Shown in pieces: positions 4,972 through 5,096 of a stretch of DNA of 35,074 nucleotides (its first letter is position 1; each line of letters starts with the position of its first letter). The position numbers were made by a program, and so were the translations under genes. The notes below the pieces were generated by a model. That model saw nothing but the letters and a program-made list of their open reading frames with translations, had not been told where the DNA came from and did no database searches. The stretch comes from Eledone cirrhosa. Taxonomy: Eukaryota. The stretch spans positions 1-35,074 of the forward strand of contig CAXHJY010001086.1 of NCBI GenBank assembly GCA_964016885.1, written 5' to 3'.

Positions 4972-5096
4972 TTTAATATAGAAATGGCTTTTACAGGACA
5001 AGAACTGTTTCATTTGAAAGAAATCATCAGGAAAGCCCTGATCATTTCCTTTGAATGAAACAGTTCTAGTCCTGTAGAAGCCATTTCTATATTAAA
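4972..5096. repeat. 60-bp-arm inverted repeat (5-nt loop, 6 mismatches)
   Basis: 4972-5031 is the reverse complement of 5037-5096. Confidence 0.92.
4986..5037 (-). ncRNA. Hammerhead-ribozyme-like motif (type I)
   Basis: Minus strand: GGCTTT-C-CTGATGA-TTTCTTTCAAAT-GAAA-CAG-TTCTTGTC-CTG-TA-AAAGCC. Stem I is 6 bp, stem III is 4 bp, the cleavage triplet is GUA, stem II is weak. Confidence 0.55.

What the first reader, a model, noticed from the sequence alone, without database searches (positions are those of the whole stretch)
4972..5096. 60-bp hairpin downstream of SDHC made of a hammerhead motif and its own antisense copy
Seen: the arms 4972-5031 and 5037-5096 differ at only 6 of 60 positions. 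The minus strand of the left arm and loop reads as a near-complete type I hammerhead (stem I GGCUUU/AAAGCC, CUGAUGA, GAAA, stem III ACAG/CUGU, GUA site). The plus-strand mirror copy has a broken core (CUGAUCA) and no stem I partner. The intact motif is on the SDHC sense strand, about 490 nt past the stop and beyond a candidate AATAAA. Inference: in read-through RNA the upstream arm could sequester the ribozyme as long dsRNA, giving two mutually exclusive folds. More simply, it may be an inverted Penelope-like terminal repeat.
Basis: partly seen in the sequence, partly recalled or inferred. Interest (0 to 1): 0.75.

Follow-up and report, generated by a model that had tools for sequence, protein, structure and literature searches.

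The report
Head-to-head stump of Penelope retrotransposon
The hairpin is real, but it is one decayed copy among thousands of short mirror-image stumps of a Penelope-like jumping gene, likely unrelated to SDHC control; the centres of these stumps likely mark where the element's capped RNA begins.

Summary
The hairpin is real (6 of 60 mismatches, z −15) but not locus-specific. At least 3,749 palindromes in this genome keep CTGATGA in both arms, so the broken core here is a single-copy change. The element is about 190 bp: two head-to-head hammerhead arms plus a ~65-nt tail on one side, between (TA)n/(CA)n runs. Its hammerhead and tail are 83% identical to the start of a complete Penelope-like element (hammerhead–tail–RT/GIY-YIG ORF–hammerhead, Hydra-clade motifs, telomerase-like fold). 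Stem I co-varies between subfamilies, so the family hammerhead is credible. The 'intact' arm here has three damaging changes (stem I closing pair, stem II pair, loop III palindrome). It lies ~380 nt past the only AATAAA, and its arm divergence equals the family mean. Palindrome centres stop sharply 30 nt after a TATA box, often with an extra G the parent lacks, which suggests two cDNAs running off the capped transcript start and being joined. The architecture is published; I did not find this start-site reading in print. Earlier unreviewed notes of this scan reached it on other DNA, including this genome.

The parts
4907..4971 (-). Tail: extension present on one arm only; in the parent it continues into the ORF
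   Evidence: Window 4908-5033 aligns at 83% over 130 columns to parent L281; tail on exactly one arm in 32 of 37 and 22 of 23 palindromes
4972..5037 (-). Long arm: from the inferred transcript start (7 nt before the core) to the inner end; carries the hammerhead motif
4986..5037 (-). Type I hammerhead motif, decayed: stem I 5' strand 5037-5031, CUGAUGA 5030-5024, stem II 5023-5012 (U-U first pair), GAAAC 5011-5007, stem/loop III to 4995, GUA 4994-4992, stem I 3' strand 4991-4986. Changes against the family at 4991, 5000 and 5015 affect pairing; 5019 is in loop II
5030..5038 (.). Head-to-head junction; this tip type recurs in either orientation relative to the tail
   Evidence: About 17 versus 8 of 31 rows from the 30 closest loci, a sample biased by the query strand
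5037..5096 (+). Short inverted arm without tail; lacks the stem I 5' strand; core reads CTGATCA (change at 5043)
   Evidence: family-derived contigs of a DNA-like run read G at 5043 in nearly all depth
4872..4906 (.). (TA)n/(TG)n target-like flank at the tail end
   Evidence: sequence; same flank type in family
5097..5112 (.). TA-rich flank at the inner end; no target-site duplication can be told apart
   Evidence: sequence
5523..5630 (-). Last coding exon of the SDHC-like gene (neighbour, not part of the element); AATAAA at 5479-5474
   Evidence: single copy in G000

Best explanation
The hairpin is one decayed copy of a very abundant short head-to-head insertion derived from the hammerhead-and-tail segment of a Penelope-like retrotransposon, likely made when both ends of one DNA cut were extended on the element's RNA and the two short cDNAs were joined. 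Shown: copy number, one-sided tail, parent element with RT/GIY-YIG ORF, co-varying stem I, shared variants between the two arms of a copy, sharp 5' edge of the arms. Inferred: the enzyme cuts (TA)n DNA and starts reverse transcription at two fixed internal sites 68 nt apart (with and without tail). On the RNA's 5'-proximal hammerhead both cDNAs run only ~60 and ~130 nt before reaching the capped start, 30 nt after a TATA box, where stem I begins. They are then joined through 1-4 nt microhomology or short inserts. The template is mostly uncleaved RNA. The copy near SDHC is likely a neutral passenger and its ribozyme is predicted to be weak or dead.
For: Copy number: 9,988 exact 20-mer hits, 3,749 two-core palindromes, 16,398 exact 31-mer hits for a young subfamily; reversed-pattern controls 0. 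Parent: L281 = hammerhead, tail, 758-codon open frame, 3.6-kb microsatellite spacer, second hammerhead without tail; the same ORF at 96-98% in five more loci. RWK, DKT, YRDD, CxCx5C, CxxC..E, N..CxH conserved across 55 aligned proteins, matching the Hydra clade description (PMC8557442, passages). Model pLDDT 90.8; the six best PDB hits are telomerase RTs. Stem I co-varies: GGCTTC or GGCTTTC with GAAGCC versus AGATTC with GAATCT; loop II varies (46-74% majority) while stem II is kept (86-100%). Short palindromes in 37 of 71 places, tail on one arm in 32 of 37. Arms within a copy differ 10% versus 19% between copies; loop II identical within 16 of 25 copies versus 12.5% between. Two fixed outer ends followed by (TA)n. 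In 23 young palindromes the longer arm ends at -4 to -7 in 16, none between -8 and -44. TATAAATA at -36 (20 of 25) or -37 (9 of 9) by subfamily. Base at -7 is G in 72 of the first 100 of 1,653 listed junction rows (hand count) versus 0 of 24 long arms; 8 loci carry it on both arms. Two-strand cutting and two internal RT starts were shown in vitro for an anole element (PMC11167929, parts 1-2 of 4).
Against: The window's own subfamily was not found attached to an ORF; the link runs through a sister subfamily at 83%. Its longest copies start after a microsatellite ~450 nt upstream. Pfam gave no RT hit and only a sub-threshold GIY-YIG hit (E 0.019); a PDB sequence-profile search gave 0 hits. The transcript start is inferred from sequence only. 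The G at -7 can come from the opposite arm in many rows (19 of 100 are direct CAG/CAGG joins), and in the 12 short arms of my fetched loci G was only 4 (C 5, A 2, T 1). The same spot also reads as a splice acceptor, and D. virilis has an intron ending at helix I (PMC4209133). L281 itself starts at about -9 to -12. Post-insertion rearrangement of palindrome centres could also vary the tips. No tree against reference clades was built.
Confidence: 0.8

Rival explanations
1. Penelope-derived, but the inverted arm arises by fold-back self-priming of one cDNA or of an antisense template, as proposed for rotifer Penelope, or by later revision of a longer palindrome's centre.
For: Proposed in PMC3846280 (passages). 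Arms share variants, as self-copying also predicts. Some junctions sit at small native palindromes or hold short templated inserts.
Against: Either arm can be the longer one relative to the tail. Zero-loop tips occur, which a fold-back cannot easily form. Eight loci carry the non-parental G on both arms. Both outer ends are fixed sites.
Confidence: 0.25
2. A co-opted SDHC regulatory switch: read-through RNA folds either into an active hammerhead or into a long duplex.
For: Tail arm is on the SDHC sense strand, 486 nt past the stop; hairpin is very stable.
Against: Thousands of dispersed copies. Divergence typical of neutral decay. Stem I closing pair, a stem II pair and the loop III self-complement are lost (predicted self-duplex -7.7 versus -12.8 kcal/mol). 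Hairpin begins ~380 nt past the only AATAAA.
Confidence: 0.03
3. A MITE-like DNA transposon or a self-spreading palindromic master whose hammerhead look is chance.
For: Short, high-copy, palindromic, TA-flanked; one tip sequence recurs in many copies.
Against: One-sided tail, variable junctions, arm lengths from ~40 to >150 nt, single-arm long copies, compensatory stem I change and an RT-coding parent.
Confidence: 0.04

Closest known systems
Endonuclease-bearing Penelope-like elements with inverted pseudo-LTR and optional tail (Adineta vaga Pen2a, PMC3846280, passages; general scheme in PMC8557442, passages)
   Same: Head-to-head inverted 5'-truncated copy, tail on one end only, tail running into the ORF start, palindromic junction, TATA-like box in the pseudo-LTR.
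   Different: Here thousands of copies are reduced to ~190 bp with no ORF; the tail is ~68 nt rather than 30-40; centres pile up at one position.
Hydra clade of Penelope-like elements (Craig et al. 2021, PMC8557442, passages)
   Same: C-terminal endonuclease, RWK and DKT motifs, CxCx5C linker, CxxC and CxH around the conserved E and N, no CCHH, canonical hammerhead, (TA)n targets.
   Different: Described families are mostly under 3 kb; L281 is ~6 kb because of a 3.6-kb microsatellite spacer. Placement by motifs only, no tree.
PAc, Poseidon element of Anolis carolinensis (Frangieh et al. 2024, PMC11167929, parts 1-2 of 4)
   Same: Hammerhead just before or at the ORF start, two RT start sites defining the tail, AT-rich targets, uncleaved RNA as main template.
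   Different: Different clade; the parts read do not describe joining of two short cDNAs at the transcript start.
Metazoan type I hammerheads of PLEs and non-LTR retrozymes (PMC4209133 parts 1-2 of 4; PMC7229834 passages; PMC3088659 passages)
   Same: CUGAUGA/GAAA core, self-complementary loop III suited to dimers, U-U at the base of stem II (seen in axolotl and other natural variants); pairs of hammerheads on opposite strands were noted in Schistosoma.
   Different: Stem III has 4 pairs, GUA site, no tandem monomers at this locus; this copy has lost three structural features.

Membership tests
Penelope-like elements (EN+) | Telomerase-like RT in a single ORF | tested here: met
   Parent L281: YRDD and other RT motifs invariant in 55 rows; best fold hits TERT. 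Pfam RT and PDB sequence searches were blank. Shown for the sister subfamily, 83% to the window copy.
Penelope-like elements (EN+) | C-terminal GIY-YIG endonuclease | tested here: met
   VY..YIG, R, E, N conserved; Pfam GIY-YIG only E 0.019, below cut-off.
Penelope-like elements (EN+) | Pseudo-LTRs with hammerhead flanking the ORF | tested here: met
   Two same-strand hammerheads 5,966 nt apart around the ORF.
Penelope-like elements (EN+) | Inverted 5'-truncated copy and one-sided tail | tested here: met
   32 of 37 and 22 of 23 palindromes; window copy fits.
Penelope-like elements (EN+) | Target-site duplication | tested here: inconclusive
   Flanks are (TA)n/(CA)n, so none can be told apart.
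Hydra clade | RWK, DKT, CxCx5C, CxxC/CxH motifs, no CCHH, (TA)n targets | tested here: met
   the parent reads RWR where 76% of relatives have K.
Hydra clade | Groups with Hydra references in an RT tree | not tested
   No labelled reference proteins were in hand.
Type I hammerhead (family level) | Conserved core and three stems with co-variation | tested here: met
   Compensatory stem I change between subfamilies; stem II kept while loop II varies. No Rfam hit.
Type I hammerhead (window copy) | Pair closing stem I next to the cut site | tested here: not met
   Change at 4991 leaves either a mismatch or an extra C before the core; such insertions impaired cleavage in PMC3088659 (passages).
Type I hammerhead (window copy) | Self-cleavage at 4992/4991 | not testable with these tools
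   Needs an in vitro assay or RNA ends.
MITE | Terminal inverted repeats at both element ends, transposase partner | tested here: not met
   One-sided tail, variable centre, RT-coding parent.
Non-LTR retrozyme | Tandem hammerhead-bearing monomers | tested here: not met
   Single head-to-head unit here; short tandem arrays were seen only around L013/L014 among the 30 closest loci.

The most novel reading that the evidence does not exclude
These thousands of palindromes are 'double strong-stop' products: a Penelope-type enzyme primes both ends of one cut at two internal sites near the RNA's 5' end, both cDNAs run off the capped start (leaving a cap-derived G), and they are joined head to head. 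The genome would then record the element's start site and show that its hammerhead occupies the first ~52 nt of the mRNA, where cutting would remove the cap.
Probability: 0.55. Interest if true: 0.55.

Novelty: new member of a known kind. Interest (0 to 1): 0.33.

Why it matters
For SDHC it matters little: the hairpin is likely a neutral insertion. For transposon biology, how Penelope-like elements make their inverted ends and what their hammerhead does are stated as open in PMC3846280, PMC8557442 and PMC11167929. A young family with thousands of junctions gives a large natural data set. It points to two-ended priming that ends at a capped start, and this can be tested by 5' RACE or CAGE. It also means several thousand ~60-bp near-perfect hairpins exist genome-wide that could form double-stranded RNA where transcribed (not tested). 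Such repeats are easily mislabelled as MITEs or microRNA precursors (one search gave only sub-threshold miRNA hits).

Tried and rejected
Rfam scans of the window and of 4900-5200 gave no hammerhead hit, only sub-threshold hairpin families. RNA evidence: no RNA holder listed. Contigs of seven guessed-RNA runs from other organisms and one run of unknown kind did not define the SDHC 3' end; one guessed-RNA run had a 72-nt piece on the hairpin at ~90% identity, a family copy rather than this locus. Walking upstream from older copies ended at a microsatellite and suggested a free 600-bp unit; the young parent's microsatellite spacer explains this. An ORF fragment beside L092 belonged to another old Penelope-type family and was dropped as parent. 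Same-strand or inverted pairs L226, L227, L285, L286 gave no ORF over 200 codons. Test for arms starting at the hammerhead cut: only 183 matches genome-wide; of the first 100 rows about 19 are confounded by the stem I repeat and about 5 others start there (hand count), so no evidence for cleavage either way. No second SDHC allele in G000 to test presence/absence. Search of earlier findings by sequence was empty. Literature searches; from listings and the passages read I found no report of palindrome centres at a capped start, but subscription papers (for example the 2017 paper on dimeric PLE hammerheads, recalled), Repbase/Dfam entries and supplements were not seen. PMC13282606 (part 1 of 3) and 10.64898/2026.07.22.740005 (part 1 of 5) were read and did not bear on this element. 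The taxon is only guessed as cephalopod-like.

Full report
Observation. The arms 4972-5031 and 5037-5096 differ at 6 of 60 positions around a 5-nt loop, and the strand folds far better than shuffles (z -15.2). The SDHC-like gene ends at 5525-5523 on the minus strand, 486 nt from the motif; the only AATAAA between stop and hairpin is 44 nt past the stop. Rfam found no hammerhead here.

It is a dispersed repeat. A search of the own genome gave 3,547 first-look candidates, 40 scored, many at 90-95% over the whole hairpin. An exact 20-mer occurs 9,988 times, palindromes with CTGATGA in both arms 3,749 times, and a 31-mer of a young subfamily 16,398 times; reversed-pattern controls were 0. All 30 closest loci share the same limits: palindrome plus a tail on one side, between (TA)n and (CA)n runs. 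So the unit is ~4907-5096, longer than the finding. Of 71 places taken from the first 100 hits, 37 were short palindromes, 32 of them with the tail on exactly one arm. Eleven loci were dropped first as repeat hits or segmental duplicates, two long regions were handled apart, and some remaining singles are probably duplicates too.

The family hammerhead is credible; this copy is damaged. Subfamilies differ by a compensatory change in stem I (GGCTTC or GGCTTTC with GAAGCC; AGATTC with GAATCT). Loop II varies while stem II is kept. Stem II opens with U-U, a known natural variant (PMC3088659 and PMC7229834, passages). Loop III is self-complementary, as described for dimer-forming PLE hammerheads (PMC4209133, parts 1-2). 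Against the family, the minus-strand arm has changes at 4991 (stem I closing pair), 5000 (loop III palindrome), 5015 (stem II pair) and 5019 (loop II); the plus arm has 5043 (core) and 5052. The predicted self-duplex falls from -12.8 to -7.7 kcal/mol; the hammerhead fold scores +0.4 in the family register or -4.3 with an extra C before the core, against -5.9 for an intact copy. The 10% arm difference equals the mean of 25 family palindromes, so nothing marks this copy as constrained.

The parent. Widely spaced pairs of young-subfamily hits were fetched. L281 reads hammerhead, tail, a 758-codon open frame, a 3.6-kb microsatellite spacer, and a second hammerhead ending without tail. Window 4908-5033 aligns to its hammerhead and tail at 83% over 130 columns and stops where the tail ends. 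The ORF recurs at 96-98% in five other fetched loci and has 608 relatives at E <= 1e-30, one named, as uncharacterized. Pfam gave only a weak GIY-YIG hit and a PDB profile search nothing, but the model (pLDDT 90.8) matches telomerase RTs best. RWK, DKT, YRDD, CxCx5C, CxxC..E and N..CxH are conserved over 55 rows, the traits given for the Hydra clade (PMC8557442, passages). Caveat: the window's own older subfamily was not seen joined to an ORF.

How the hairpin likely forms. The two arms of a copy are more alike than arms of different copies (10% versus 19%; loop II identical in 16 of 25 versus 12.5%). In the young sample (60 places, 23 called palindromic, a lower bound) 21 differ at two positions or fewer, 22 have the tail on one arm, and junctions show 1-4 nt overlaps or short inserts. 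The outer ends fall at two fixed sites 68 nt apart, followed by (TA)n. This fits the anole element, which cuts and extends both strands from two internal RT starts that define the tail and uses uncleaved RNA (PMC11167929, parts 1-2). The centres are not random: the longer arm ends at -4 to -7 from the core in 16 of 23, none between -8 and -44. TATAAATA lies at -36 or -37 by subfamily, 30 nt before -6 and -7, where stem I begins. The window's long arm starts at -7. In the first 100 of 1,653 junction rows the base before -6 is G in 72, C in 25, T in 2, A in 1 (hand count; some loci appear on both strands), whereas 0 of 24 long arms have G. Eight loci have it on both arms. Untemplated G is read as a cap mark in LINE-1 and SVA (PMC4859970, passages). 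Against: G can come from the partner arm in at least 19 rows; my own 12 short arms gave only 4 G; the site also resembles a splice acceptor; no RNA data were available. Arms starting at the cut site were rare and confounded, so cleavage in vivo is neither shown nor excluded.

Comparison and verdict. Head-to-head inverted ends with a one-sided tail are a published Penelope trait (PMC3846280, PMC8557442), there explained by self-priming. It works like, and by motifs descends from, a Hydra-type Penelope-like element; it fails as a MITE and as a tandem retrozyme. The SDHC switch has no support. The start-site reading was not found in eight paper searches. I noted it before reading earlier scan notes, several of which, unreviewed, say the same for other families and genomes; they are not independent evidence. 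Interest 0.33: ordinary at this locus, with a testable mechanistic lead at family level.

Noticed in passing
window 4731-4871: A second, different repeat abuts the tail: a partial hairpin plus tail that shares short tail motifs; fuller copies in flanks of L078, L084, L089 are palindromes with the 3' half of a hammerhead-like motif. Probably a sister Penelope-type family inserted in the same (TA)n run.
   Followed up: partly
window 32413-32460 (+): Another hammerhead-like motif (CTGATGA, hairpin, GAAAC) with a U-U first pair and weak stem I; similar motifs in L056, L068, L115.
   Followed up: no
window 15350-16600 and 23640-24890 (-): Two intronless 7-transmembrane receptor ORFs, 99.4% identical over 1,249 nt: a recent local duplication.
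   Followed up: partly
window 13776-13857 (-): tRNA gene above the Rfam gathering score (56 bits), with a long variable arm.
   Followed up: no
window 17500-18900 and 30690-31200: Tandem arrays of 55-nt and 79-nt units at 95-99% identity.
   Followed up: no
L281, between ORF end and second hammerhead: A 3.6-kb irregular (TA)/(TG) spacer inside the element; older subfamily copies begin right after such a run, so it may be a preferred break or annealing point.
   Followed up: partly
flanks of L013, L022, L078, L100, L112, L137, L182: At least five further hammerhead families with different stems turned up in fetched flanks; hammerhead-bearing repeats are very common in this genome.
   Followed up: no
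L070 and L141, 5' boundary of the long older unit: Short inverted duplications of the unit's 5' end around a microsatellite, possibly another head-to-head join.
   Followed up: no
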